From the NCBI RefSeq assembly GCF_963921235.1, contig NC_086097.1, positions 94,242,001 to 94,306,000 of the forward strand: a stretch of 64,000 nt of DNA, written 5' to 3'. A program made the translations under genes and the position numbers. Positions 4,546-62,864 of the stretch are shown piece by piece (positions within the stretch are counted from its first letter, which is position 1; each line of letters begins with the position of its first letter). Source of the stretch: Mobula hypostoma. Lineage: Eukaryota. A model generated the notes under the pieces. The model had not been told where the DNA came from. It saw only the letters and a program-made list of their open reading frames with translations, and did no database searches.

Positions 4546-5591
4546 GTGCTTTTCTTTGAGTTTTCTAGCACCTGCAATTTTGTTTTTGATTTACCACTGC
4601 ACTGGGAGTGTCAGCCTGCGTGTTTGCTCAAGCTTCTGACTCAAGGAGGAAAGCAGGAGCCCGGGCTTGGTAAAGATTGCCCTAGAAAATTTAGGAACTG
4701 AAGATTAGCATGCAGGCTTCACTAAGGATATATTGTGTGTGTCAGAAAGGGTTTAACCATTCATTTGCTTTTATTTTTGCAATATTTTCATTTACTGGTT
4801 GAATGTGTGTGTAGAAAGTGACTTGATTGACATTCAGGGTTCATCCTGTGGAAAGGTGGTACACCAGCACCATGGAGCCGTAGTTGGGCTGGGGCAGTAT
4901 GAGGCACCAAAGAACCTCCAGGAATCTGCCCACCCCAAGGACAACTGCTCAGATGAGATTTGATCATCAACACTTCCAACAGGAAGCTGCATATGTTGTC
5001 ATGTCTCTGATTCAAACGACCTCGTTGCCTCGGAAACTGGTATAAGATAAACAGGGTCAATGAGCAACAAACTCTTACTTTGATGATGGGCCCAGAGACG
5101 CTGGTGACATCTCCTTATGGCCATTCCCAAACTGTTGCCCAGGTTCCAGCTTTGTTACTCTCATGTGTGTTTATCTGTGGATGCACCAAGGTTACACATT
5201 AGCAGCATGCTAGTGGTTGAATTTCACTGGAGTTGTACTGCATTATAATTAACAACACATTTCACCATGATTACTAGCACAATGCCACTTTAATTGGTAG
5301 AGTGTTCCATTACAACTTTATAATTCCACTACAGTTTTAAATTCCAATTATAGCTCGGATTGTATTCCGCTATAAATAACTGTTAGTATAATATATTTAA
5401 CAGTGCAAAACTACAATTTACATTAGCTGCGATGAGTCTTACATTCCAATAATTCAGTAGTGATTATACTTCACATGTATTTCAATGGTAATGCTTCATT
5501 AGGGGACCAGGAGCTTGCAAAAGCTTTCTTTGCCCTCTCCAAAGCTTTTGGACATATTTTCACCGCTGGTTTCCACAATATTCTATTTAAA

Positions 5592-6282
5592 GGTGAGGCA
5601 ACACTTCACTTGTGAGTCTGTTGGGGTCATCTATTGCATCCGGTGCTCCCGGTGCGGCCTCCTCTACATCGGTGAAACCCGACACAGATTGGGGGACCGC
5701 TTCGTCGAGCACCTCCACTCCGTCCGCCAAAACAGACAGGATCTCCCAGTAGCCACCCACTTCAACTCTGCTCCCCTCTCCCATTCAGACATGTCCATAC
5801 ATGGCCCCCTCTACTGCCATGATGAGGCTAAACTCAGGTTGGAGGAGCAACACCTCATATACCATCTAGGTAGTCTCCAGCCCCTTGGTATGAACATAGA
5901 ATTTTCCAACTTCCGGTAATTCCCTCCCCCTCCCTTCCTCTATCCCTATTTCACTCTGCCCCCTCCCCCAGCTGCCCATCACCTCCTTCATGGTTCTGCC
6001 TCCTTCTACTACCCATTGTGTTTTCCCCAATTCTTTCTTCACCTATCCTGCCTATCACCTCCCTGTCTCTCTTCCCCCACCCCTTTATATCTTTCCCCTT
6101 ACGGGTTTTTCACCTGGAACCTACCAGCCTTCTCCTTCCCATCCTCCCCCCACCTTCTTTATAGGGCCTCTGCCCCTTCCCTCTTCAGTCCCGATGAAGG
6201 GTTCCAGCCCGAAACGTCGACTGATCTTTTCCATGGATGCTGTCCGACCTGCTGAGTTCCTCCAGCGTGTTGTGAGTGTTGT
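5592..6282 (+). mobile_element. 5'-truncated Penelope-like element (GIY-YIG endonuclease end, 3' region with hammerhead motif)
   Basis: ORF GVIYCIRCSRCGLLYIGETRHRLGDRFVEH...GMNIEFSNFR. Flanked by direct repeat TTCTATTTAAA (5581-5591 and 6283-6293). Confidence 0.9.
6186..6223 (+). ncRNA. Minimal type I hammerhead ribozyme motif with variant core CCGAUGA
   Basis: CAGTC-CCGATGA-AGGG-TTCCAG-CCC-GAAA-C-GTC-GACTG. Stem I CAGTC/GACTG, stem II GGG/CCC, GUC triplet. Confidence 0.7.
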
Positions 6283-6494
6283 TTCTATTTAAATCCTTCC
6301 TATCACTGCACTTAAAGTGATTCTGAATGAATCATAAATAATATCCACTACATGACTGAGGTGAACCATTCTTGCTCAGCTTCTTCAGTGACATGTTCTT
6401 CTTCACCACCCTCTCTCAGTATCTTCGTCCACACCTCCCTTCCTGCAAGACATGTGCTGCCACCTCATGGTAACGCAACAGTTATAACTCCTAT

Positions 6495-7112: not shown

Positions 7113-8282
7113 GGGTATTTGCAGTTCAGCTGATGCTGTCAAGATGGAAGGTGGTTGTGACTAGCTTAGAAATAGCACATAATTCAACTTGCTAACATGA
7201 TAAAAAGTATTTTATTTAAGGCAAGGACACCTACTGGGTACTGCATAACAACATAGTGTCAGAACAATGTTTAGGGATGCTATATAAAGTAGTATGGATT
7301 TGCTGTTGGACAACAGGATGCATGGCAAGATTCAGAAAGTTTTGGATTCATTTCCTACAGAGACCCCATCTGTTTTGACTGGATCTACAGAGAAATAACT
7401 CTAGTCAGGTAGCTGATGGTAAATGTCCAGCCATTAACTGGGAATGGCAGAAATGAAAGAAAACCTGGGAATTCAAGGACGGAGCAGATAAAGCTGAAGC
7501 AAGCAACTTCTTCAATGGAAGAAGTTTCTCCTTATTGTTTTAACACCATGGAAACAAAAAATGCAGTTGCAGCTGTTTGGTCTACCAAGCAACCAGGCAA
7601 TATGAGATGCTGCTTGCTTTGTAGACCAAACAGCTGCAGGCTCTAAAAGCTTTTCAGGACGACTTCAGCTCTACAAGAATTGAAACAGGGCAAACTTAAG
7701 CATTTCAAGGAGAAATCATCGCGAGTGGGAAACATTTGACATATAATTGGCAGAACTAGTGCTGGTAGTGCAGATTGTAACCTTGCAACAGAGACCAGAG
7801 GGCTCACTGCTCTGCGACAAAGTTTGAGATGTAGGATTGAGGGAACATTTGTGAGGGAAACAGACTCCAGATTGAGAAGCAACTCAGATCCGCTCTAACT
7901 TGTTTACGAGAGCAAGAGGTTTGGAGAAGATGCCATCTCGCTGACTCTTCACTCAACCCTGGAACATCTGGACAGTAACGATGCATACATCAGGATGCTC
8001 TTTATCGACTACAGCTCAGCATTCAGTACTATCATCCCCTCAAAACTAACCAATAAGTTTCAAGACCTTGGCCTCTCTGTGCAACTGAATCCTCAATTTC
8101 CTCACTTGCAGACTCTAGACAGTTTGAATTGGCAACAACATCTCTTCTAGAATCTCCATCAGCACAGGTGATGCTGGATCCCAACCTTCGATTGACCCTC
8201 AGGCCTTGCTCTGGACCTCCGATTGGGCCATATCCACTACTTTTTCAAGGATTTTCCATTCAAGGGCATTGAAAAGGAGTTT

Positions 8283-8410
8283 CAAATCCCTTACTCACTC
8301 TTCCTTCAGTTAGTCCTGACGAAGGGTCTCGGCCTGAAACGTCGACTGCGCCTCTTCCTATAGATGCTGCCTGGCCTGCTGCGTTCACCAGCAACTTTGA
8401 TGTATGTTGC
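8283..8410 (+). mobile_element. Short Penelope-derived insertion carrying a hammerhead ribozyme
   Basis: 128 bp between 14-bp direct repeats TTGAAAAGGAGTTT (8269-8282 and 8411-8424). Nearly identical to one arm of the palindrome at 52595-52786. Confidence 0.85.
8311..8348 (+). ncRNA. Minimal type I hammerhead ribozyme, canonical core
   Basis: TAGTC-CTGACGA-AGG-GTCTCGG-CCT-GAAA-C-GTC-GACTG. Stem III is reduced to palindromic ACGT, as described for dimer-forming PLE hammerheads. Confidence 0.8.
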
Positions 8411-8561
8411 TTGAAAAGGAGTTTGTCTAAGTTTTAGGTGTCATGTTGAATCTTCACAAACTCCTAAAGAAGTATAGGCATTGCTGTACTTTCTTCATAA
8501 CTGCACTTATGTGCTGGGCCCAGGACAAGTCCTCTGATACGATAACACCAAGAAATTTAAA

Positions 8562-9087
8562 CCTGGAGGTCTGGATCGAGGCCTGGGGGTCAATCAAAGG
8601 TTCGGATTGAGGCCCAGGGTTCGATCACAAGTCCGCATTTAGGCTCGAACGCCGATCGGAGGTTGGGTTTGAGGCATGAGAGTCGATCAGAGGTCTTGTA
8701 GAGGCCTGAATGCCGATCGGAGGTTGGTTTTGAGGCATGAGAGTCGATCAGAGGTCTTGTAGAGAGGCCTGAATGCCAATCGGAGGTTGAGTTCAAGGCC
8801 TGAGGATCGATCGGAGGTCCATATCAAAGGCCAGTTGGAGGTCCGGATTGAAGCCCTTCGGCCAAGTGGGGGGTTGGGATTGAGACCCAAGGGTCAACTG
8901 GAGGTCTGGATCGAGGCCCAAAGGCCAATCAGAGGTTTGGATCACAATCTGAAGGCCAATTGGAGTCTGGATCAAGACCTGAATGTGGATCGGAAGTCTG
9001 GATTGAGGCCTGAGAGTCATTCAGAGGTCGAGATTGAAGCTCGAAGGAGTTCTGGATCGAAGTCCGACGGCGGATCTGTGGTCAGGA
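8562..9087 (+). repeat. 31-bp tandem satellite, left block
   Basis: Degenerate units of the type GAGGTCCGGATCGAGGCCCGAAGGTGGATCG. Same unit as 14712-20420. Confidence 0.9.
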
Positions 9088-39007: not shown

Positions 39008-39483
39008 AAAGCATTTAAAGAAATGGTATGACTTCCCCAGATGTGTGAATATGGGCTGTATGTTGCTTAAAATTACTGCTCCTTCATTTTGACACAAGTA
39101 GAGGGAGAATAGGTGGAGAAATGGGACTGATGGAAGTTCTCTGCAAAGCCACCATAGACCCACTGGGCTGAAAAGCCCATGTTGAAGGAAAGTATGGATT
39201 TTGAGACAGACATAAACACACCCTTTCTCTTTCTATCCCCATCCCATGCCCTCAGCATAGACAATTTATCCTCATGCTTGCCTCAAGCTTCACAAGCCTC
39301 GGATAACAATGAGGTCATTCATTGTCCTCTAAGCTAAACCATGAATGAGAGTATGGAGGGCAAGTAAAGGATGGGCTATTGTTTTGTGGTTCTGAGTGCA
39401 GCATCTCACTATGCTGGTGAGGAGAGTCCACCTCCTGCACAGGGTGGTACAGAGGTCATGTGTGCTCACTGACACCGAGTCAA

Positions 39484-41731
39484 AGCAACACTCACAACAC
39501 GCTGGAGGAACTCAGCAGGTCGGGCAGCATCCGTGGAAAAGATCGGTCGACATTTCGGGCCAGAACCCTTCATCGGGACTGAAGAGGGAAGGGGCAGAGG
39601 CCCTATAAAGAAGGTGGGGGGAGGGTGGGAAGGAGAAGGCTGGTAGGTTCCAGGTGAAGAACCAGTAAGGGGAAAGATAAAGGGGTGGGGAAGGGGAGGC
39701 AGGGAGCTGATAGGCAGGAAAGGTGAAGAAGGAATAGGGGAAAACACAATGGGTAGTAGAAGGAGGTGGAACCATGAGGGAGGTGATAGGCAGCTGGGGG
39801 AGGGGGGCAGAGTGACATAGGGATAGGAGAAGGGAGGGGGAGGGAATTACCGGAAGTTGGAGAATTCTATGTTCATACCAAGGGGCTGGAGACTACCTAG
39901 ACCGTATATGAGGTGTTGCTCCTCCAACCTGAGTTTAGCCTCATCATGGCAGTAGAGGAGGCCATGTATGGACATATCCGAATGGGAATGTGAAGCAGAG
40001 TTGAAGTGGGTGGCAGCTGGGAGATCCTGTCTATTGTGGTGGAGGGAGCGGAGGTGCTCGACAAAGCGGTCCCTCAATCTGTGTCGGGTTTCACCTATGT
40101 AGAGGAGGCTGCACCGGGAGCACCGGATGCAATAGATGACCCCAACAGACTCACAAGTGACGTGTTGCCTCACTTGGAAGTACTGTTTGGGGCCCTGAAT
40201 GGTGGTAAGAGAGGAGGTGTAGGGATAGGTGTAGCACTTGCGCTTACAGGGACAAGTGCCAGGTGGGAGATCCGTGGAGAGGGACGTGTGGATCAGGGAG
40301 TCGTGGAGGGACTGATCCCTGCGGAAGGTGGAGAGGGAAAGATGTGCTTAGTGGTGGGGTCCTGTTGAAGGTGGCAGAAGTTGCGGAGGATAATGTGCTG
40401 GATCCGGAGGCTGGTGGGGCGGTAGGTGAGGACAAGGGGAACTCTGTCCCTGTTGTGGCGGGAGGATGGGGTGAGAGCCGAAGTGCGGGAAATGGAGGAG
40501 ATGCGGGTGAGGGCATCATTGATGATAGCAGAAGGGAAACCACGATCCTTAAAGAAAGAGGACATTTGAGATGTCCTGGAACGGAAAACCTCATCCTCGG
40601 AGCAGGTGCGGCGGAGACGGAGGAACTGGGAATAGGGAATGGCATTTTTGCATGTGGCGGGGTGGGAAGAGGTATAGTTGAGGTAGTTATGAGAGTCAGT
40701 GGGCTTGTAGAAGATGTCAGTCTGTCTCCAGAGATGGAGACCGAGAGATTGAGAAGGGGAGAGAAGTGTCCGAGATAGACCAAGTGAATTTGAGGGCTGG
40801 GTGGAAGTTAGAAGTAAAGTCGATAAAATTGACGAGCTCAGCATGGGTGCAGGAAGCAGCACCAATGTAGTCGTCAATGTAGCGAAGGAAAAGTTGGGGA
40901 GCAGTACCAGAATAGGTTTGGAGCACAGACTGTTCCACATAACCAACAAAGAGGCAGGCATAGCTACAGCCTTGGCCTGAAGAAAGTGGGAAGAGCCAAA
41001 AGAGAAGTTATTGAGTGTGAAAACCAGTTCTGCCAACCGGAGGAGGGTAGTGGTGGTGGGGAACTGGTAAGGTCTATTATCCAGAAAGTAGTGGAGGGCT
41101 TTGAGGCCGCCTTCATGGGGAATAGAGGTGTATAGGGATTGGACATCCATAGTGAAAATGAAGCGGTTCGGACCGGGGAACTAGAAGTTATTGAAGAGGT
41201 GGAGGGCAAGGGATGTATCCTGGATGTAGGTGGGGACGGACTGAACTATGGGTGACAAAATGGAGTCCAGGTAGGCAGATACAAGTTCGGTGGGACAGGA
41301 GCAGGCAGAAACTATGGGTCTGCCGGGACAGTCAGGCTTGTAGATCTTGGGGAGGAGGTAAAACCGAGTGGTACTGGGTGTGGGAATTCTGAGTTTAGCG
41401 GCTGAGGATGGAAGGTCTCCAGAGTTGATAAGGGCAGTAATGGTACGAGAGACAATGGTTTGATGTTTTTGGTGGGGTCCTGTTCCAGGGGTAAGTAAGA
41501 GGAGGTGTCAGCTGCCGTTTGGCCTCAGTGAGGTAGAGGTCCGTCCACCAGACTACTACAGCACCACCTTTGTCTGAGGGTTTGATGGTGAGGTTGGGAT
41601 TAGTGCGGAGAGAGTGGAGGGCAGTGCGTTCAGAGGGAGTGAGGTTGGAACAGGAGAGAGGAGTGGTGAAGTTGAGACGGTTGATGTCTCGGCGACAGTT
41701 GGAGATAAAAAGATCAAGTGCAGGTAGAAGG
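39484..41731 (-). mobile_element. 5'-truncated Penelope-like element with RT and GIY-YIG endonuclease (frameshifted) and 3' hammerhead motif
   Basis: IKPSDKGGAVVV, MDVQSLYTSIPH, FLRYIDDYIG and GVIYCIRCSRCSLLYIGET motifs. Near-direct repeat TGACACCGAGTCAA / TGACATCGAGTCAA at 39470-39483 and 41747-41760. Confidence 0.92.
39544..39581 (-). ncRNA. Minimal hammerhead motif with variant core CCGAUGA
   Basis: - strand CAGTC-CCGATGA-AGGG-TTCTGG-CCC-GAAA-T-GTC-GACCG. Confidence 0.6.
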
Positions 41732-42329: not shown

Positions 42330-45300
42330 CATGCAGGCCGGCATTGGAGTGCAGAGATGAGGCTTTGGTTCAAGAGGTGGAGTAAATTGCCCAAGTGTAG
42401 GAAGTGAGATCGGCTCCCTAGAAAAAAAAAATTTCAGTAGGTAAGCATAAGTAAGAACAAGTAAGGTTTTATTTTATTCTAATCATTGATTCAGCTTTAG
42501 TTCAGGAGGTTTTGGTGAATGGATACTATGGTGTGGTTTCCTTTTTATTGCATATTTAGAGCCGTGGAATGGCAGTCAGGGCAGTGGTGTACTCTTCTTG
42601 TAGGATGTGGGAAGTCAGGGAAACTGCGGTATCATTGATGACAATACCTGAGAAAAGAACATGCTGCTGCAGCTCCTTACAGACCACGTGGGGAGCTGAA
42701 GCTGGATGAACTCAGGGTCAATCAGGAGGCTAAGCAGTATATAGACAAGAATTACAAGTTACTAGGTAGTTACACCTAAATTGCAGGTAGCTGAGTGACT
42801 AAGAGAAAGAGAATAGGCAGTCAGTGCATGGTATCCTAGTGATAGTACCCCTCAATAACAAGTACATCATTTTGGATAGTGTTGTGGGGGAGATGACCTA
42901 CCAGAGGAAATCTCTGGCATGGAGTTTGACTCTGTGGCTCTTCAGGGAAGCGGGAAGAAGAAGAGAGCAGTAGTGATAAGGCATTCATTAGTTGGGGAAA
43001 CAGGCAATTGAGGATGAAAGGAAGGCTCCAGGATGATATGTTGCCTCCCAGGTGCCAGGGTCAGAGTCCACAACATTCTTAAGGGTTGGGTGAGCAGCAG
43101 AAGCTATGATGTACATTGCTACCAATGACATTGATAGGACGAAGTCCTGACGAGGGAACACAGGGAGCTAGGAAGGCTGCCAAGCAGTGGGACTTCAAGG
43201 GTAAGAATAAGATGATTTGGCAGATGAATGCATGGATGAGGAGCTGGTGCACTGGCAGCACTTCAGATTTGTGGAACATTGGGATTCTGTGGAAGGTTTG
43301 ATTTGTACAAAAGGACAGGTTTCATCTGAACTTGAGAGAGACAAACGTCATTGGGCAGGTTTGCTAGAGCTGTTGGGGAAGGTTTAAACTAGGTTGGCAG
43401 GGGATGGGAACCAGAGTGGTAGGTCAGATAATGAAGCAGTAGGTGTAAAGGTAGATGCAATGTATAGAGTGACTTTGAGAATAAGGTATAAATACAGTCG
43501 GTTGAAATGGGTTGAAATGCGTTTAATTTAAATGAACAAGTATTACAGGATGATAAACTTAGATCGTGAATCAATACAAGGAGTTATGATGCTGTAGCCA
43601 TTATGGAGATTTGGCTGTGACAAGATCAGGGTTGGATGCTCGATGTTCTGGGGTTTAGATGTTTCTAAAGGGATGGAGGGAGATGAGAGTGGGGTGAGTG
43701 GCATTGCTAATCAGGGATTGTGTCACAGCTACAGAAGGGGAGGATGTTGTGGAGGGATTGTCTACTGAGTCAATATAGGTGGGAGTCAGAAATGGGAAGG
43801 GAGTAATCACTCTATAGGGAGTACAGTTTTCTGTAGGTCCTGTAGTACCCACCGGGACACTGAGGAGCACATAAGATATCACGGTAGCAGTTAGCGCAAT
43901 GCTATTATAACTCAGCGTGTCGGAGTTCAAACCTGGTGTCCTCTGCATACAGTTCTGGTCACCCCACTATAGGGAGGATGTTGAGGCTTTGGAGAGGGTG
44001 CCAAAGAGTTTACCAGGATGTTGCCTTGGCATGTGTTATGAAAGGCTGGATAAACTTGGGTTGTTTTCTCTGGAGGCTGAGAGAAGATCTGATAGAGATT
44101 TACAAGATAATGAGAGGCATGGATAGAGTGGACAGAGTACCTGCTTCCCGGGGTTGAAATGTCTAATACCAGAGGGCATGCATTTAAGGTGAGAGGGGGT
44201 AGGTTCAAGGGGGCTGTGAGGGGTAAGTTTTTTTACTCAGAGTGGTGGATGCCTGAAATGTGCTGCCTGGTATGGTGGTAGAGACAAATACATTAGAGAA
44301 TTTTAAGAGAAGTTTGGATAGGCACATGGATGTAAGGAAGATGGAGGGATAAGGACATTGTGTAGGTAGGAGGGATTAGTGTTTGGGTGTTTTTGATTTG
44401 CTGTATAGCTGGTTAGACACACCATTGTGGGCTGAATGACCTGTTCCTGTGCTGAACTGTTCTATGCACTGAGTCTCTGTACATCCTTCCCGTGGAATGC
44501 ATGGGTTTTCTCCAAGGGCTCAGTTTCCTCCCTCAGTCCAAACATGTTAATTGGTCATTGTAACTTGTCCTGTGATTAGGTTAGTGTTAATTGGGGTTGA
44601 GTGATGTGGTTTGAAGGGCTGGAAGGGCCTATTTCATGCTGTACCTCTACAAACAAAACAAATAAAAATAGATAAAATTAAATAAGTAGGCAGATTTTGG
44701 AAAGGTGCAAAGATAACAGGATTGTTGTCACGGGTGACTTCAATTTCCCTAATGCAGATTGGCACCTCCTTAGTGCAAGAGGTTTAGATGGGGTCACAGA
44801 GGATTTTATACTAGATAAAAAAAACCTGGACAGGTGACAGACCTCACCATGGGCAAGCATTTCAGAGATGGTGGCCACAACTCTCTGACCTTAGCTATGG
44901 CCATGGACAAGGATAGGAGTGGACCATATAGGAAAGTCTCGAGGGAGGATTAATTATGGTGGTATTAAGCAGAAACCTGGGAGCATAAATTGGGAAAAGA
45001 TGTTCTTGGGGAAATGCACATCAGAAATGTAGAGGTTGTTAGGTTGCCCTGCTGTGATAGAAAGGGTAATAGGGTGAAGGAACTATGGTGGCCAAGAAGA
45101 GTGGAACATTTAATGAAGAGGAAGAAGGAAGTGCACTTAAGGTTTAGGATGCAAAAATCAGACAGGATTGTTGATAGTTATAGGGTGGCCAGGAAGGAGA
45201 TTATCAAGTGACTTAGGAGAGTGAGAAGGGCATGAGAACACCTTGGCAAGAAGAATTAAGGAAACCCCAATGGCAATCTACACAAGTGAAGAACAGGAGG

Positions 45301-50720: not shown

Positions 50721-51268
50721 AGAAACATAGAAACATAGAAAATAGGTGCAGGAGTAACCATTCGGCCCTTCGAGCCTGCACCGCCATTTATTATGATCAT
50801 GGCTGATCATCCAACTCAGAACCCAGCCTTCCCTCCATACCCCCTGACCCCTGTAGCCACAAGGGCCATATCTAACTTCCTTTTAAACATAGCTAATGAA
50901 CTGGCCTCAACAGTTTGCTGTGGCAGAGAATTCCACAGATTCACCACTCTCTGTGTGAAGAAGTTTTTCCTAACCTCGGTCCTAAAAGGCTTCCCCTCTA
51001 TCCTCAAACTGTGACCCCTCGTTCTAGACCTCCCCAACATCGGGAACAATCTTCCCGCATCTAGCCTGTCCAATCCCTTTAGGATCTTATACGTTTCAAT
51101 CAGATCCCCCCTCAATCTTCTAAATTCCAACGAGTACAAGCCCAGTTCATCCAGTCTTTCTTCATATGAAAGACCTGCCATCCCAGGAATCAATCTGGTG
51201 AACCTTCTTTGTACTCCCTCTATGGCAAAGATGTCTTTCCTCAGATTAGGGGACCAAAACTGCACACA
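50721..51268 (-). mobile_element. Young 5'-truncated CR1-type LINE
   Basis: Uninterrupted 149-aa ORF2 C-terminus (QFWSPNLRKDIFAIEGVQRRFTRLIPGM...FFTQRVVNLWNSLP) and a (TTTCTATG)n tail. Inserted in an older + strand CR1 tail. Confidence 0.9.
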
Positions 51269-52594
51269 AGTAAGGGTATCAAAGGTTACAGGGAGAAGGC
51301 AGGAGAAAGGGGTAATAAATCAGCTATGATGGGAGGGCAGAGCAGACTCTATGGGCCCAATGGCTTAATTCTGCTCCTATGTCTTATGCTGAACAGCAGG
51401 AGACAACTTGGTAAGATCGGCTACAGTACACAAAGTGAGCCAAAACCATCAATTGCAACATACACCAGGTGGACTTTCACCTGCTGTAGTGTAGCAAATG
51501 GTTGCTGATTTCATCCATGTTAATAGTAATTTCCAAATCATCTGAATTTCTTCTGATTTTCTTTATATTTTAACAGCAAGTCCTCCTAAACCCAATTCAT
51601 CCCCAAAGATCAAAAGCTTTGGGTTGGAACATCGTTGACGATCTTTGGGAAATGGGAGAGGGTTTGGGTGATTATCCTGGTATCTTTTATATCATACTCA
51701 CATAAATGTAGTTGTAGTTGGCTCCCAACAGATAAACACACATTTAGGAGAGTCTAATTGACCAGTAAATTGCCAAATTCTTTCAGCAGTTTGTGTTTTT
51801 AATCCAGATCTCAGCACTTATAGTCCCTAGTCTCTCCAGGTAAAGTTATTAATGTCCCTATTTGGCATTACATGTGTTGGCAGCTCTGTATTCAGGCTTT
51901 GAAGAGGGCAGAAAAGCAATGCCCAAATTTAAACCTATTGCTTTGAAATTGCTCATCTCCCTATTCACACAAGGATATTACTCATTCTGTTCAGAACAAA
52001 CTAAAAATATTACTGATGCTAGTTTTAAACCTGCTCCACAATGAGGCAGGTCAGGTCAGAATGGTGAATTCTTTACAGAGTGGGGCAGGGCTGTTGGGAC
52101 ATTCCAACTCAACGAGATCATAAAGACCAAATGTCCCTTTACCAGACAGCAGCTTTACTGGTCTTGCTGTGACATTTACACCACCTGTCCACCCTTTGCC
52201 CCGACCCCCTCCTCCACAATTCCCTCCTGCCTTCCATCACAGACCATCTCCAAGGTCTTGTACAAGACCACAAGCACCTCCCAGCTACCAGCAACCCCCA
52301 CAGCACTTTCACCTGGCTTGGTAATATTCAAAATATGGGGCATTTCTCAGTTCAGATTACAGATCATTGGTCTGAAATGTTAACTGCCCTCTCAGTGTGT
52401 ACTGCCTTATTTGCTGAGGATTTTCACTAACAATGTATTTCACTCAACTTTAGTCTCACTTGGAGTATAGGAAAATAGTCTGAAATGTCTCAGTACAGCC
52501 ACTTCTGGAGTACTGCATACAGTTCTGGTCGCCCCTCTGGCGGAAGGATGTTGAGGCTTTGGAGAGGGTGCAGAAGAAGTTTACCAAGATACTG

Positions 52595-52817
52595 GCAACA
52601 TACATCAAAGTTGCTGGTGAACGCAGCAGGCCAAGCAGCATCTGTAGGAAGAGGTGCAGTCGACGTTTCAGGCCGAGACCCTTCGTCAGGACTGACGAAG
52701 GGTCTCGGCCTGAAACGTCGACTGCACCTCTTCCTACAGATGCTGCTTGGCCTGCTGCGTTCACCAGCAACTTTGATGTATGTTGCTTGAATTTCCAGCA
52801 TCTGCAGAATTCCTGTT
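52595..52817. mobile_element. Penelope-derived palindromic insertion (95-bp perfect inverted repeats, 2-nt spacer)
   Basis: Arms 52595-52689 and 52692-52786 are exact reverse complements. 16-bp TSD GTTTACCAAGATACTG at 52579-52594 and 52818-52833. Confidence 0.95.
52657..52694 (-). ncRNA. Minimal type I hammerhead ribozyme, canonical core
   Basis: - strand CAGTC-CTGACGA-AGG-GTCTCGG-CCT-GAAA-C-GTC-GACTG. Confidence 0.8.
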
Positions 52818-53444
52818 GTTTACCAAGATACTGTCTGGTTTAGAGGGCATGTGTTATCACTGGAGGCTGGATAAACTTAGGCTGTTTTCTCTGGAGCACT
52901 GGAGGCTGAGGGGAGATCTGATAGAGGTTTGTAAGATTATGAGAGACATAAATAGAGTGGACAGGGAGTATCCGTTTCCCAGGATTGAAGTGTCTAATAC
53001 CAGAGGGCATGCATTGAAGGTGAGAGGGGGTGGGTTTAAGACAGATATGAGGGCTAAGTTTTATACTCAGAGTGGTAGATACCAGGATGGCAGTAGAGGC
53101 AAATACATCAGAGGCTTTTAAGAAATGTTTGGATAGGCACATGGATGTGGGGAAGATGGAGGGGTATGGATATGGGGTAGGTAGGAGGGATTAGTATTTG
53201 TGTATTTTTGATTTGCTTTTTACCTGATTCAGCACAACATTGTGGGTCGATTGGTCTGTTCCTATGCGGTACCCTTCTATGTTCTGAATTATTACAATGC
53301 TGGCCAAATTGTTACTTCAGCGGCAAGAACTTGACTCAGATACATAGGGAAGTTATGGGAAGCAAGAAGATACATTGGTGTATTGGCAAATGCTGATGGT
53401 AGAAAGAGTATTGTGTCCTGAGAATGGACCCAAGGTGACTGTAA

Positions 53445-54072
53445 AGGCTGATTTATACTTGTGTGTCAAAGGTACGCCGTAAGTACGGTGTAGCACTGTA
53501 CCCTACACTGTACTCTACACCAACCCTACACCGTAGCCTGACGTGCATCTCTCCCAAAATGTAACTACGCGTTGTGGCGTCGCAGACCGCAACAACTGCG
53601 ATTGGTCTGCTTGGTAGCATCGCATTTCCTCCTACGCTGCAATAGCTTCCCATTGGGTTACTGAAGGGCAGGGAAGGAAATCTGGCTGCAATGCTTTCCA
53701 TAAAGCTTTACAGACCTCCGAAATTATGGAGGACCCTGTGCTTGACACTAGTTTGTAGCTAGCAGCTACAGCCTGTTGACTTCTACCTGAAGCTAAAACT
53801 TGAATGGTGATTGCCAGTCTCTGAGTATACTGTGCGTACACTGATGTGAAATAAATGGTTGGAGACGATGAACCAAATTGTCAAATCTACCTGCCGATAT
53901 CCGAAAATATTTGAAATGCATTTCCTCGTCTATGTCTCTCAGTGGCCAGACAAGCACAGAAAATACACCCTCCTTCAGTTTCAGTTGCCATTATTTGAAG
54001 TTTGAGTTTCTTCGTGTAGCCCACTTGTGTAGGCGATGGCGCAAGCTGGTACGCACAAGTATAAATCAGCCT
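53445..54072 (-). mobile_element. Non-autonomous PIF/Harbinger DNA transposon (internal deletion derivative)
   Basis: TIR AGGCTGATTTATACTTGTG, perfect over 19 bp, flanked by TAA / TTA. Internal - strand transposase remnant HFKYFRIS...[25 protein letters not shown]...[13 protein letters not shown]. Confidence 0.88.
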
Positions 54073-56879: not shown

Positions 56880-58550
56880 CCTCTGGTAGATCAGGATGCT
56901 AATCTATACATGGAGACAAAAAAGATGGGGGAGATCTTAAATGCATTTTTTGTATCTGTATTTACTCAGGAGACAGGGTCTGTAGAAGTGAAGTAAAACA
57001 GCAGTGAGGTCATGGACCCTATACAGACTACAGAGGAGGAGGTGTTTGCTGTCTTGAGGCAAATTAGGGTGGTTAAATCCCCAGGACCAGACGAGGTATT
57101 CCTTTGGACCCTGTGGGAGGCAAGTGCAGAAATTGCAGGGGCCCTAGCAGAAAAATTTAAATTATTGTTAGTGAGAGGTGAGGTACTGGAGGATTGGAGG
57201 ATAGCTAATATTGTTCCACTGTTTAATAAAGGCTCTAAAAATAAACCAGGAAATTATAGGCTGGTAAGCTCGACATCAGGAGTGGTAAAATTACTGGAAG
57301 GTACTCTAAGGGATCGGATATATGAGTATTTGGATAGACATGGACTGTTTAAGAATAGTCAGCATGGCTTCGTGTGTGGTAGGTTGCATTGAGTTTTTTT
57401 GAGGAAGTTACCAGGAAAGTTGATGAAGGCAAGGCAGTGGATGTTGTCTCTATGGACTTTGGCAAGGTATCTGACAAGGTCCGCATAGGAAGCTGGTCAA
57501 GGAGGTTCAGTCTCTCGGCATTAAGAATGAGGTAGAGAATTGGATTAGACAGTGGCTTCGTGGGAGAAACCAGAGAGTGGTAGTAGAGGGTTGTCTCTCT
57601 GACTAGGCCTGTGACTAGTGGAGTGCAGGTTCCATTACTGTTTTTCATCAGTATCAATGATCTGGATGATAATGTGGTAAACTGGATCAGCAAATTTGTG
57701 AATGACACCAAGACTGGGGGTGTAGCAGACAGTGAGCTAGACTATCAGAGTTTGCAGCGGAATCTGGATTAGGAAAATGGGCTGAAAAGTGGCAGATGGA
57801 ATTTAATACAGACAAGTGCGAAGTGTTGCACTTTGGTAGGACCAACCAGAGTAGATCTTACACAGTGAATGGTAAGGTACTGAGGAGTGTGGTAGAACAA
57901 AGGGATCTGGGAATAGAGGTACATAATTCATTGAAACTAGCATGACAAGTGGATAGGGTCTTAAGAAAGTTTATGGCACTTTGGCCTTCATAAAACAAAT
58001 TACTGAGTACAGGAGATGGGATGTTATGTTGAGGTTGTATAAGATGTAGGTGAGTCCTAATTTGGAGTATTGTGTGCAGTTTTGGTCCCCTACCTACAGG
58101 AAAGATGTAAATAAAATTGAAAGAGTACAGGGAAAATTTACAAGGATGTTGCTGGGACTGGAGGATCTGAGTTATAAGAAAAGATTGAAGAGGTTAGGAC
58201 TTTATTCCTTGAAATGTAGAAGACTGAGGGAGACTTGATAGAGGTATACAAAATTATGAGGGTATTGACAGGGTAAATGCAAGCAGGCTTTTTCCGCTGA
58301 GGTTGGGTGGGACTATAAGAGGTCATGGGTTAAGGGTGAAAGGTGAAACATTTAAGGGGAACATGCTGCCAGCACAAGTGGTGCATGCAAGCTCGATTTC
58401 AACGTTTAAGAGAAGTTTGGTTTGGTACATGGATGGTAGGGGTATGGAGGGCTATGGTCTGGGTGCAGATCTTTGGGACTAGGCTGTTTAAATGGTTCAG
58501 CACAGACTAGATGGGCCAAAGGGCCTGTTTCTGTGGTACTTTTCTATGAT
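56880..58550 (+). mobile_element. CR1-type LINE ORF2 3' half
   Basis: KSPGPD, EDWRIANIVPLFNKG...PGNYRLVS, QHGF and EYCVQFWSP motifs, then the 3' tail. Confidence 0.9.
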
Positions 58551-60384: not shown

Positions 60385-62010
60385 TAGACCATAAAGACAT
60401 TGGAGCAGAATTAGGCCACTAGGTCCTGTAACCTTTGACATCCTGAATAAACAAGACACTATCAACCACCACTTTAAATATATTTAGTGACTTGACCTCC
60501 ACAGCCACCTGTGACAATGAATTCCATCAATTTCTGACTAAAGAAATTCCTTCTCATCTATGTTCTAAATGGGCGTCCCTTTATTCTGAGGCTGTGGTGG
60601 TCTGAGACTCCCCAACTATAGGAAACATTCACTCTATCAAGGCATTTCAATATCTGATAAGAGTTCAATGAGATCCCTGCAACATCATTTCTGACAGGCA
60701 GGACAGACAAAGGAGAGTAAGCAACATCCACTGACTCTCCTTTGTCTATCCTGCCTGTTATTTCCTCAAAGAATTCCAACAGATTTGTCAGGCAAGATTT
60801 CCTGTCAAGGAAACCGTGCTGACTTTGGCCTACTTTATCATGTGCCTCTAACTACCCCAAAACCTCATCCTTACTAATGGACTCTAACACTTTCTCTCCC
60901 TTCTTAAAGAATGGAGTGATATCTTCAGCCACCACTTTCATAACCCTGGGGTGCAAGTCCATCTGGTCCGGTGACCTTTCAGCTTCCCAAGCACCCTCTC
61001 CTTAGTAATAGCAACTACACTCACTTCTGCTCTCTGACACTCTCGAATTTCTGGCATACTGCTAGTGTCTTCCACAGTGAAAACTGACACAAAATATTTA
61101 TTAGGTTTGTCTGCCATTTCTTTGTCCCCCATTACTACCTCTCCAGTGTCATTTTGCAGCAATCTGATATCCATTCTTGCCTCTCTTTTACTCTTTATAT
61201 ATCTGAAAAATCCTTTTGTATCCTCTGATATCATTGGCTAGCTTACATTAATATTTCAGTTTTCTTCTTATCGTTTTTTTTTTGTTGCCTTCTGTTGGTT
61301 TTTAAAAGCTTCCCAATCCTCAAACTTCGTACTAATTTTTGCTATAGTATATGTTCTCTATTTTGCCTCTATGCTGTCTTTGACTTCCCTTGTCAGCAAT
61401 GGTTGCCTCATCCTCCCTTTAGAATACTTCTTCATCTTTGGGATGCATCTAATCTGCGCCTTCAAAATTGCCCCCAGAAACTTCAGCCATTGCTGCTCTG
61501 CCATCATCCCTGCCAGTGTTCCCTTCCAATCAACTTCGGCTAGCTCCTCTCTCATCCCTCTGTAATTCCCTTTACTCCACTAGAATACTGATATATCTGA
61601 CTTTAGTTGCTCCCTCTCAAACAGCAAGGTGATTTTGATCATATTATGATAACTGCTTCCCAAGGGTTCCTTTACCTTGAGCTCCCTAATCAAATCTTGT
61701 GCATTACACAACACCCAATCCAGAATTGCCTTTTCCCCTAGTGGGCTCCACCACAAACTGCTCAAAAAAGCCTTCTTGTAGGCATTCTATGAATTCACTC
61801 TCTTGGGATCCAGCACCAACCTGAATTTCCCAATATTGAAATCCCCCTTGACTATCATAAAATTGTCCTTATTACATGCCTTTTCTATTTCCAATTGAAA
61901 TGCATGTACCACATCCTGGTTACTGTTCAGGGGTGGGGGGGGGTGGGATGTATATAATTTCCATCAGAGTCGTTTTAACCTTGCAGTTTCTCAACTCTAC
62001 CCACATGGAA
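60385..62010 (-). mobile_element. Internally deleted CR1-type LINE
   Basis: AILDWVLCN...EPLGSSYHNMI, FFRYIKSKR and EFFEEITGRIDKGESVDV motifs, then the 3' tail. Confidence 0.85.
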
Positions 62011-62726
62011 TTTACATTACCTTCTCCTTTCTGTGGATAGTGTGTGAACTCGGGAATGGGCTTTGGATGGAGGGAGGAAGTAATCAGAAGTCAATGTATC
62101 ATACCCTAATGCAGGTTGCTTTGCTAGAACACTTGCCTGATTTGATTTCAATGAGATGGACCAGACCTCGAGCAGATTTGAACAGGCCCTGTAGCAAATT
62201 ATAAGCCATAGACAGTTATTGTCTAGTGCAAGCTGTCTCCACATTAGTAATGAGTGTTCTGACAGAGAATCAACCACTGTACCTAGAAGGAACAGTTGTA
62301 ACTTCCAGCAATTGTTAAAGGAAATATCTGTCTAGGTCCCAGTTGGACCTCTTCGTCAAGGCTGCAGAGCACCAATGCAGAAAGTAGAGGAAATTTGGGA
62401 TGCAAAATTTGAATACCTGTGGGAGATCTGAGCAGATCTATTGTGGATACACACAAAAAAAGTGCTGGAGGAACTCAGCAAGTCAGGCAGCGTCTATGGA
62501 GACAAGTAAACAGTTGATGTTTTGGACTAAGACCCTTCATCAGGGCTGTTCAGGGCAAGCTGCCCCTGCATTAGTAATGGGAGTTCTGACAGAATCAATC
62601 CCTACTCCTGGAAGTAGCAGTCAGACCTATAGTATTTTTTTTAGAACAGAAATTATCTTTCTGGATTATATTTGGATCTCTTCACCACAGCTGCAAAGTA
62701 CCAAAGGGGAAAGAAAAGGAAGACTG

Positions 62727-62763
62727 GAGTCCTGACGAAGGGCTCAGCCTGAAATGTCGACTC
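62727..62763 (+). ncRNA. Minimal hammerhead motif in a short Penelope-derived fragment (about 62725-62850)
   Basis: GAGTC-CTGACGA-AGG-GCTCAG-CCT-GAAA-T-GTC-GACTC. Stem I GAGTC/GACTC. Confidence 0.7.
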
Positions 62764-62864
62764 TCCACAGATGCTGCCTGACCTGCCCGCTGAGCTCCCC
62801 CAGCAGTCTGTGCATTGTTCAGGGTTTCCCGCATTTGCAGAAACTCCCTACGGTGGACACATAC

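What the first reader, a model, noticed from the sequence alone, without database searches (positions are those of the whole stretch)
52579..52833. Perfect 192-bp palindrome made of two hammerhead-bearing arms, inserted as one unit with a 16-bp TSD
Seen: 95-bp arms with no mismatch and a 2-nt spacer (GA), plus a 31-nt unique 3' extension and an exact 16-bp TSD, interrupting a CR1 reading frame. The symmetry axis is directly 5' of the hammerhead core CTGACGA. The - strand copy keeps stem I (CAGTC/GACTG), while the + strand copy has it broken (CAGGA). Known: Penelope-like elements carry hammerheads in their terminal repeats and often insert with inverted 5'-truncated repeats. Inference: a very recent fold-back or template-switch insertion. 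Any transcript would form a 95-bp dsRNA hairpin that sequesters the ribozyme and could yield siRNAs against the whole family. The DNA could extrude a cruciform.
Basis: partly seen in the sequence, partly recalled or inferred. Interest (0 to 1): 0.7.

Follow-up and report, generated by a model that had tools for sequence, protein, structure and literature searches.

The report
Hairpin-shaped Penelope retroelement stump
This mirror-image DNA is a real but ordinary, very short insertion of a Penelope-type jumping gene, whose way of inserting often leaves two head-to-head copies; the one new hint is that such copies seem to break off repeatedly at the edge of the element's ribozyme.

Summary
Observation confirmed: 95/95-bp arms (52595-52689, 52692-52786), GA spacer and an exact 16-bp flanking repeat inside a decayed LINE fragment. 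It is a stump-sized insertion of a very abundant Penelope-like element (PLE): an inverted 5'-truncated copy, a direct copy, a one-sided tail and a TSD. That layout is published (PMC3846280, PMC8557442), and this scan noted similar hairpins before, in this genome and another. Corrections: the last 4 bases of the tail are also the first 4 of the TSD (tail 31-35, TSD 12-16). The family's stem I is TAGTC, so the junction is a 2-nt (CT) microhomology. Best mechanism (0.65): two cDNAs, primed from the top and bottom nicks at the element's two RT start sites, joined beside the hammerhead. Simple snap-back of the tail-bearing cDNA predicts the opposite spacer. 'Very recent', siRNA and cruciform are not shown. 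Lead: among 16 top-ranked inversion joints of other copies in short-read contigs, 5 end at this same position and 13 within 15 nt of it. The sample is ranked and truncated, and library chimeras are not excluded.

The parts
52579..52594 (+). Left target-site duplication (16 bp; 12 bp, 52583-52594, if GTTT is counted as element)
   Evidence: family 3' end at 52821
52595..52693 (-). Inverted, 5'-truncated pLTR copy without tail; family positions +95 to -2..-4 (C of CTGA = +1); includes the GA spacer and the CT shared with the other arm
   Evidence: family upstream letters from window 8283-8315 and loose ends behind 52693
52657..52693 (-). Minimal type I hammerhead motif of the inverted arm: stem I AGTC/GACT, core CTGACGA, 3-bp stem II, GAAACGTC with palindromic ACGT and no stem III; predicted cut between 52662 and 52661
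   Evidence: architecture as in PMC4209133; no Rfam hammerhead hit up to E 5
52692..52693 (.). Inversion junction, 2-nt microhomology CT
52692..52786 (+). Direct, 5'-truncated pLTR copy (+1 to +95); hammerhead core present, 5' strand of stem I lost; predicted cut site between 52719 and 52720
52787..52821 (+). One-sided PLE tail (31 unique bases plus GTTT shared with the TSD)
   Evidence: many copies end at 52821; in X1, 4 contigs leave the reference before 52595 and 4 behind 52787
52818..52833 (+). Right target-site duplication
   Evidence: exact contig 52797-52928 in X1
52481..53058 (+). Host: decayed LINE ORF2 3' fragment (CR1-like by recalled motifs), split by the insertion
   Evidence: both flanks match the same window paralogs, e.g. 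58050-58365 and 50969-51268
8269..8424 (+). Sibling insertion of the same subfamily (3 differences in 100 bases): single direct copy from -33 to +99, 14-bp TSD whose first 5 bases are also element sequence
39483..40475 (-). Longer copy of a sister subfamily (77% over 83 bases) in which the hammerhead-bearing end follows a GIY-YIG endonuclease frame; a second copy lies at about 5400-6285 (+)
   Evidence: PF01541, 23.1 bits against cut-off 22.6; 18.9 bits for the second copy

Best explanation
One PLE integration event with two reverse-transcription starts. The endonuclease nicked both strands 12-16 bases apart. The bottom-strand end primed at the distal start of the RNA (52821), probably helped by 4 bases of primer-template pairing, and made the tail plus the direct arm. 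The top-strand end primed 35 bases further in (52786), without homology, and made the inverted arm. Both cDNAs ran through the uncleaved hammerhead and stopped at its 5' edge (-4 and about +1). Their 3' ends paired by CT/AG, and fill-in gave the palindrome and the TSD. The arms are identical because the same RNA, or identical repeats of one source, was copied twice. Shown: the anatomy, the two family ends, the microhomology, copying through the cut site. Inferred: two cDNAs, the order of events, one or two RNA molecules. The insert is a non-coding relic with no sign of function.
For: Anatomy. The two arm starts match two recurrent family ends, 52821 and 52786/52595 (table 7; the second rests on 4+4 contigs of X1). 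PMC11167929: a purified PLE protein nicks and extends both strands, starts at two adjacent internal sites that delimit the 30-40 bp tail, and uses mainly uncleaved RNA. The same layout with TSD and a 31-bp tail is in PMC3846280 and PMC8557442. Other copies show antisense-to-sense joints with unequal arms: 11 of 15 shown rows of table 5 and 5 of 12 of table 5c. In 4 of these 16 the direct arm holds tail sequence only. 9 of the 11 direct joints have 1-3 nt of microhomology (44% expected, P 0.012). The spacer orientation excludes snap-back of the tail-bearing cDNA. Folding the other arm back at the axis costs +3.2 kcal/mol for the one pair that can close.
Against: The centre has the polarity that self-priming of an antisense strand predicts (PMC3846280 Discussion), so sequence alone cannot separate the two models at this locus. 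PMC11167929 found no homology at the start site, whereas both window insertions have 4-5 shared bases at the bottom-strand start. The joints are the top-ranked 27 of 926 rows, come from contigs and may include library chimeras. No listed contig crosses the centre here. The RT of this subfamily was not found or tested; the endonuclease link is through a sister subfamily.
Confidence: 0.65

Rival explanations
1. Self-priming or fold-back of an antisense strand (antisense RNA, or the top-strand cDNA) that ends in ...TCAGGACT, turns back and copies itself; the tail comes from a longer template or from a short second cDNA.
For: Gives the observed GA spacer on the plus strand and explains 95/95 identity. 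Proposed for head-to-head PLE palindromes in PMC3846280. Also fits unequal arms if the loop varies.
Against: The turn offers one A-T pair over a 4-nt loop (+3.2 kcal/mol). A self-copied top-strand cDNA would run into flank, not tail, so a second step is needed. Tail-only direct arms (4 of 16 joints) are simpler with two primers. Earlier notes of the scan report head-to-head pairs from different templates (e1-7808845; not checked by me).
Confidence: 0.2
2. A longer head-to-head insertion whose centre was later deleted, for example by hairpin processing, with arms kept alike by conversion.
For: Long perfect palindromes are deletion-prone (general knowledge, no call); microhomology joins are typical of repair; PMC3846280 notes microhomology-mediated deletions in Penelope copies.
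Against: A central deletion that makes a near-perfect palindrome raises instability; it does not explain why five different joints share one end to the base.
Confidence: 0.07
3. A palindromic non-autonomous element (MITE- or retrozyme-like) that is copied as a unit.
For: Similar hammerhead-centred hairpins recur in the scan's notes. Several joints have a depth of 2-8 times single copy in X9.
Against: The joints differ from copy to copy (16 different pairs of ends). Retrozymes are defined by tandem direct repeats (bioRxiv 10.64898/2026.07.22.740005), not seen here. The other 7 hammerhead-bearing copies in the window are not palindromes.
Confidence: 0.05
4. Assembly or library fold-back artefact.
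For: No listed contig crosses the centre or the left junction; no long reads seen.
Against: Exact TSD, restored LINE frame, both ends at family ends, and an exact right-junction contig at single-copy depth. A fold-back read would not return to the correct right flank.
Confidence: 0.03

Closest known systems
Inverted-pLTR insertions of endonuclease-bearing Penelope-like elements (Pen2a_Av and others, PMC3846280; general scheme in PMC8557442)
   Same: Head-to-head inverted 5'-truncated copy, one-sided 30-40 bp tail (31 bp in Pen2a), TSD, palindrome at the inverted junction.
   Different: Here both copies are cut down to about 95 bases, so the whole insert is one palindrome; published junction palindromes are 18-38 bp inside longer elements; the TSD is longer (12-16 against 8-10 bp).
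Poseidon element of Anolis (PAc), two-site internal RT initiation (PMC11167929)
   Same: Two start sites one tail apart, both strands extended, copying through an uncleaved hammerhead.
   Different: In-vitro work on another family; it does not describe how 5' ends are joined, and reports no primer-template homology, while 4-5 shared bases are seen at two of two window insertions examined.
Minimal hammerheads (min-HHR) of metazoan PLEs (PMC4209133)
   Same: Type I motif, 4-5 bp helix I, no helix III, palindromic 15.2-16.2; pairs on opposite strands 100-700 bp apart were already reported.
   Different: The two motifs here abut at the axis, one lacks stem I, and both are buried in a 95-bp hairpin; helix II is only 3 bp.
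L1 twin priming (recalled, not read; no PLE use of the term among the 3 listings)
   Same: Two primers from the two nicks, inverted 5' part, microhomology join, TSD.
   Different: In L1 the inverted part is mostly upstream sequence; here it duplicates the direct arm, and the second start is a fixed family site.
Non-LTR retrozymes (bioRxiv 10.64898/2026.07.22.740005)
   Same: Non-coding, PLE-derived, type I hammerhead.
   Different: Retrozymes are tandem direct repeats with a complete hammerhead in each unit; this is an inverted pair.

Membership tests
Penelope-like element insertion (EN+) | Terminal repeat carrying a minimal type I hammerhead | tested here: met
   Core, stems I and II and palindromic ACGT in both arms and in other window copies; Rfam has no hit for it.
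Penelope-like element insertion (EN+) | Repeat lies downstream of a C-terminal GIY-YIG endonuclease frame | tested here: inconclusive
   Met for a sister subfamily 77% alike over 83 bases (PF01541 23.1 bits, cut-off 22.6; second copy 18.9). No coding copy of this exact subfamily is in the window and no genome is held.
Penelope-like element insertion (EN+) | Telomerase-related RT in the same frame | not tested
   The stretches scanned lay next to the repeat and gave no RT hit; no full-length copy was in hand.
Penelope-like element insertion (EN+) | Inverted 5'-truncated copy next to the direct copy | tested here: met
Penelope-like element insertion (EN+) | 30-40 bp tail at one end only | tested here: met
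   31-35 bases; both of its ends recur in other copies (table 7)
Penelope-like element insertion (EN+) | Target-site duplication | tested here: met
   12-16 bp here, 14 bp at 8269-8424
Active hammerhead ribozyme | Folds and self-cleaves | not testable with these tools
   Predicted not to fold in this insert: the hairpin takes all arm bases. Single min-HHRs did not cleave in PMC4209133.
Non-LTR retrozyme | Tandem direct repeats, each with a complete hammerhead | tested here: not met
   Inverted pair; one stem I lost
microRNA or siRNA precursor | Transcribed, with small-RNA reads from the stem | not testable with these tools
   mir-3926 match 51.3 bits is below its gathering score of 82 and is symmetric, as any hairpin gives; no small-RNA data.
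CR1 LINE (host) | ORF2 with RT and the CR1 C-terminal region | tested here: inconclusive
   Flanks join in frame and match window paralogs; Pfam found no RT in three frames of the frameshifted paralog 57000-58201. The CR1 label rests on recalled motifs.

The most novel reading that the evidence does not exclude
The axis is not chance: in this family cDNA synthesis stops, or the template RNA begins, at one position, the outermost Watson-Crick pair of hammerhead stem I (-4), which is also the AG of a 3'-splice-site-like motif. The many thousands of genomic copies would then be an in-vivo record that the uncleaved hammerhead, or the splice site beside it, sets the 5' end of PLE insertions and the place where inverted arms join. 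That would give the ribozyme a role other than cutting and make the two-primer model of PLE integration countable from an assembly.
Probability: 0.3. Interest if true: 0.55.

Novelty: new member of a known kind. Interest (0 to 1): 0.27.

Why it matters
As a single locus it matters little: a clean, minimal example of a published PLE insertion pattern that this scan has met several times. Its use is as a specimen. How PLEs finish integration and why they leave inverted copies is still open (PMC8557442, PMC11167929), and a family this abundant lets the two-primer and self-priming models be told apart by counting junctions. If the shared endpoint at the 5' edge of the hammerhead holds genome-wide, it links the ribozyme motif to the integration step.

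Tried and rejected
No whole genome is held, so no genome-wide count. Rfam: 8 matches up to E 5, none a hammerhead, none at gathering score; mir-3926 rejected. Expression: no RNA holder listed; X1 and X2 are only guessed to be RNA and have flat depth, so nothing follows about transcription, editing or siRNA. Presence or absence: the orthologous empty-site joint is not among the 15 rows shown of 579, which proves nothing; the listed X4 and X9 contigs at the right flank start inside the TSD and do not tell filled from empty. X1 may be the assembly's source. Summed depths were not used as copy numbers. Pattern scans: 0 hits in metagenome contigs, 1 hit with a shorter pattern (L001 does not continue as the element, a chance match), 0 in viral contigs. 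A scan for host exons near the site gave no Pfam table, so whether the insert lies in a gene is open. No TSD of 7 bp or more found around the copies at 62.4-62.8 kb. A splice-junction reading of the shared endpoint fails for 3 of 6 joints, whose G at -3 is not supplied by the other arm. A turn at the ribozyme cut site is rejected: the axis is 28 bases upstream of it. One search printed 6 and 14 of 16; the row 52693>52799 carries the family letters AA and ends at -6, so the counts used are 5 and 13. Paper searches for the shared endpoint showed no such report in what I read; subscription papers, figures and all supplements (for example Fig. S2 of PMC11167929 and the alignments of PMC4209133) were not seen and may hold it.

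Full report
Observation. The window holds a perfect inverted repeat: arms 52595-52689 and 52692-52786, 95 of 95 complementary, spacer GA. Nothing else in the window with a spacer of at most 10 nt exceeds 12 bp, and 5 shuffles gave at most 12. A 16-base direct repeat lies at 52579-52594 and 52818-52833. Without the 239 inserted bases the flanks form one locally open LINE frame that aligns across the site with a paralog at 43943 onward (78%). The CR1 name is recalled from motifs; Pfam saw no RT in a frameshifted paralog. The host is a relic with a stop about 37 codons left of the site.

Family. Each arm carries a minimal type I hammerhead: core CTGACGA, a 3-bp stem II, GAAACGTC with palindromic ACGT and no stem III. 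This is the min-HHR of metazoan PLEs (PMC4209133, parts 1-2 of 4 read); single motifs did not cleave there and dimers cleaved weakly. The window has 7 further copies with the core region. Two long ones of a sister subfamily follow a GIY-YIG frame (PF01541, 23.1 and 18.9 bits, cut-off 22.6; 2 of 9 frames scanned). A sibling of the same subfamily at 8283-8415 differs at 3 of 100 bases and has its own 14-bp TSD. That the host is a ray-like cartilaginous fish comes from the scan's earlier notes and from recall, not from a test of mine.

Runs. No genome is held. Of 24 runs listed I laid 4, all short-read contigs: X1, X2, X4 of organism A and X9 of organism B. The family is very abundant (62,276 records laid in X4). 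Copies end at 52821 (176, 135, 19 and 12 contigs in X4, X9, X1, X2), so the tail is 31-35 bases and the TSD 12-16. A second end shows at 52595/52787 (4 and 4 contigs in X1). The family sequence upstream of the core leaves the reference behind 52693 (86 and 42 contigs) and agrees with the window sibling. So the inverted arm follows the family to -4 (C of CTGA = +1), the direct arm starts at +1, and they share CT. At this locus, one exact X1 contig covers the right junction at single-copy depth, with fewer element letters than the tool's bridging rule asks; X1 may be the assembly source; no listed contig crosses the centre. An artefact is unlikely but not excluded by reads.

What is known. An inverted 5'-truncated copy at the 5' end and a 30-40 bp tail at one end are standard PLE features (PMC8557442, 12 passages read). 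PMC3846280 (passages and Discussion) shows them inside a TSD, with a 31-bp tail and palindromes at the inverted junction, and proposes self-priming on an antisense template. PMC11167929 (parts 1-2 of 4) shows that a PLE protein nicks and extends both strands, starts at two internal sites one tail apart and uses mostly uncleaved RNA. Retrozymes are tandem (bioRxiv 10.64898/2026.07.22.740005, part 1 of 5) and do not fit. The scan's own notes describe such hairpins in this genome and in another; they are AI notes and are not counted as support.

Mechanism. The simplest reading uses both nicks. The bottom strand primed at the distal site, with 4 bases that can pair with the RNA end (5 at the sibling); the top strand primed at the inner site. 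Both cDNAs passed the predicted cut, which lies 28 bases from the axis, so the template was uncleaved. They stopped at the 5' edge of the hammerhead and were joined through CT/AG. Snap-back of the tail-bearing cDNA is excluded by polarity: it would read TCAG-GA-CTGA on the minus strand, and the minus strand reads TCAG-TC-CTGA. Self-priming of an antisense strand has the right polarity and stays the main rival, but the turn is unfavourable (+3.2 kcal/mol) and the tail needs another step. Joints of other copies lean the same way. Of 15 rows shown in table 5 (564 hidden), 11 join an antisense to a sense piece; I left out 4 that lie in the LINE flanks. Of 12 shown in table 5c (335 hidden), 5 do; I left out 4 LINE rows and 3 that go back on one strand. 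Arms are unequal, 9 of 11 direct joints have 1-3 nt of microhomology (P 0.012), and 4 of 16 have a tail-only direct arm.

The lead. Five of the 11 direct joints have one arm that ends where this palindrome's inverted arm ends; all five, and this one, are compatible with exactly -4, and all five occur in both X4 and X9. One more ends at -6. Under uniform ends, 5 or more of 16 in a 3-base window has P 0.001 (0.02 for 6 bases), and 13 of 16 within -4..+11 has P 1e-5. Two window copies of other subfamilies also lose the upstream pyrimidine tract near -4/-5 (shares 0.44 and 0.12 against 0.76-0.96 in five longer copies), judged by composition only. Position -4 is the outer Watson-Crick pair of stem I and the AG after a branch-point-like and pyrimidine-rich stretch (sibling copy); in Drosophila virilis the PLE intron ends at the 5' end of helix I. 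Against: the rows are the best supported of 926, not a sample; the reference cannot show arms that run far past -4; shared ancestral loci are not independent; and the joint depths (145-513 in X9) are about one ten-thousandth of the family's summed depth, a level that recurrent library chimeras could reach. I did not find this endpoint in the papers read; supplements were not seen.

A transcript of either strand would fold into the hairpin (-211 or -217 kcal/mol) and could not form the ribozyme; but a lone min-HHR is expected to be inactive anyway. No data on transcription, siRNA, editing or cruciforms were obtained. Age is loosely bounded: 0 of 95 allows up to 3.1% arm divergence, while organism B differs by 10 letters and one 8-base gap over 593 flank bases, so the insertion may or may not predate that split.

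Verdict. Real, well described, and a new member of a known kind: a minimal head-to-head PLE insertion. Interest 0.27, carried mostly by the testable hint of a shared endpoint at the hammerhead's 5' edge (probability 0.3, interest 0.55 if true).

Noticed in passing
window 8269-8424: Sibling insertion with a 14-bp TSD; its 3' end lies 4 bases into the tail and shares 5 bases with the start of the TSD, like the 4 shared bases at 52818-52821. Two of two insertions examined suggest short primer-template pairing at the bottom-strand start.
   Followed up: partly
window 8283-8315: The family sequence just upstream of stem I looks like a 3' splice site: TACTCAC, a pyrimidine run, then CAG and TAG. It may be the end of a pLTR intron, as reported for D. 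virilis.
   Followed up: partly
window 62447-62556 (-) and 62724-62835 (+): Two head-to-head hammerhead-bearing stumps of different subfamilies about 180 bases apart, each apparently cut near -4/-5; no TSD of 7 bp or more found.
   Followed up: partly
window 5584-6284 (+) and 39483-40182 (-): Two 91-93% identical longer PLE copies with a GIY-YIG frame; both have C instead of U at the second core position (CCGATGA).
   Followed up: partly
window 60688-60764: A second, imperfect hairpin (weak mir-641-like Rfam match, far below gathering score) inside what looks like a minus-strand LINE.
   Followed up: no
window about 8560-9060: A degenerate array of short repeats (units of roughly 20-40 bases, rich in GAGG and GATC).
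   Followed up: no
window 53480-53540: A small imperfect inverted repeat around GTACGGTGTAG / CTACACCGTAG at the edge of another repeat.
   Followed up: no
joint 52691>52786: An inverted arm ending at -4 joined to almost exactly the tail alone, at about 8 times single-copy depth in X4 and 2 times in X9: what is expected if the distal cDNA stalls where the inner one began.
   Followed up: partly
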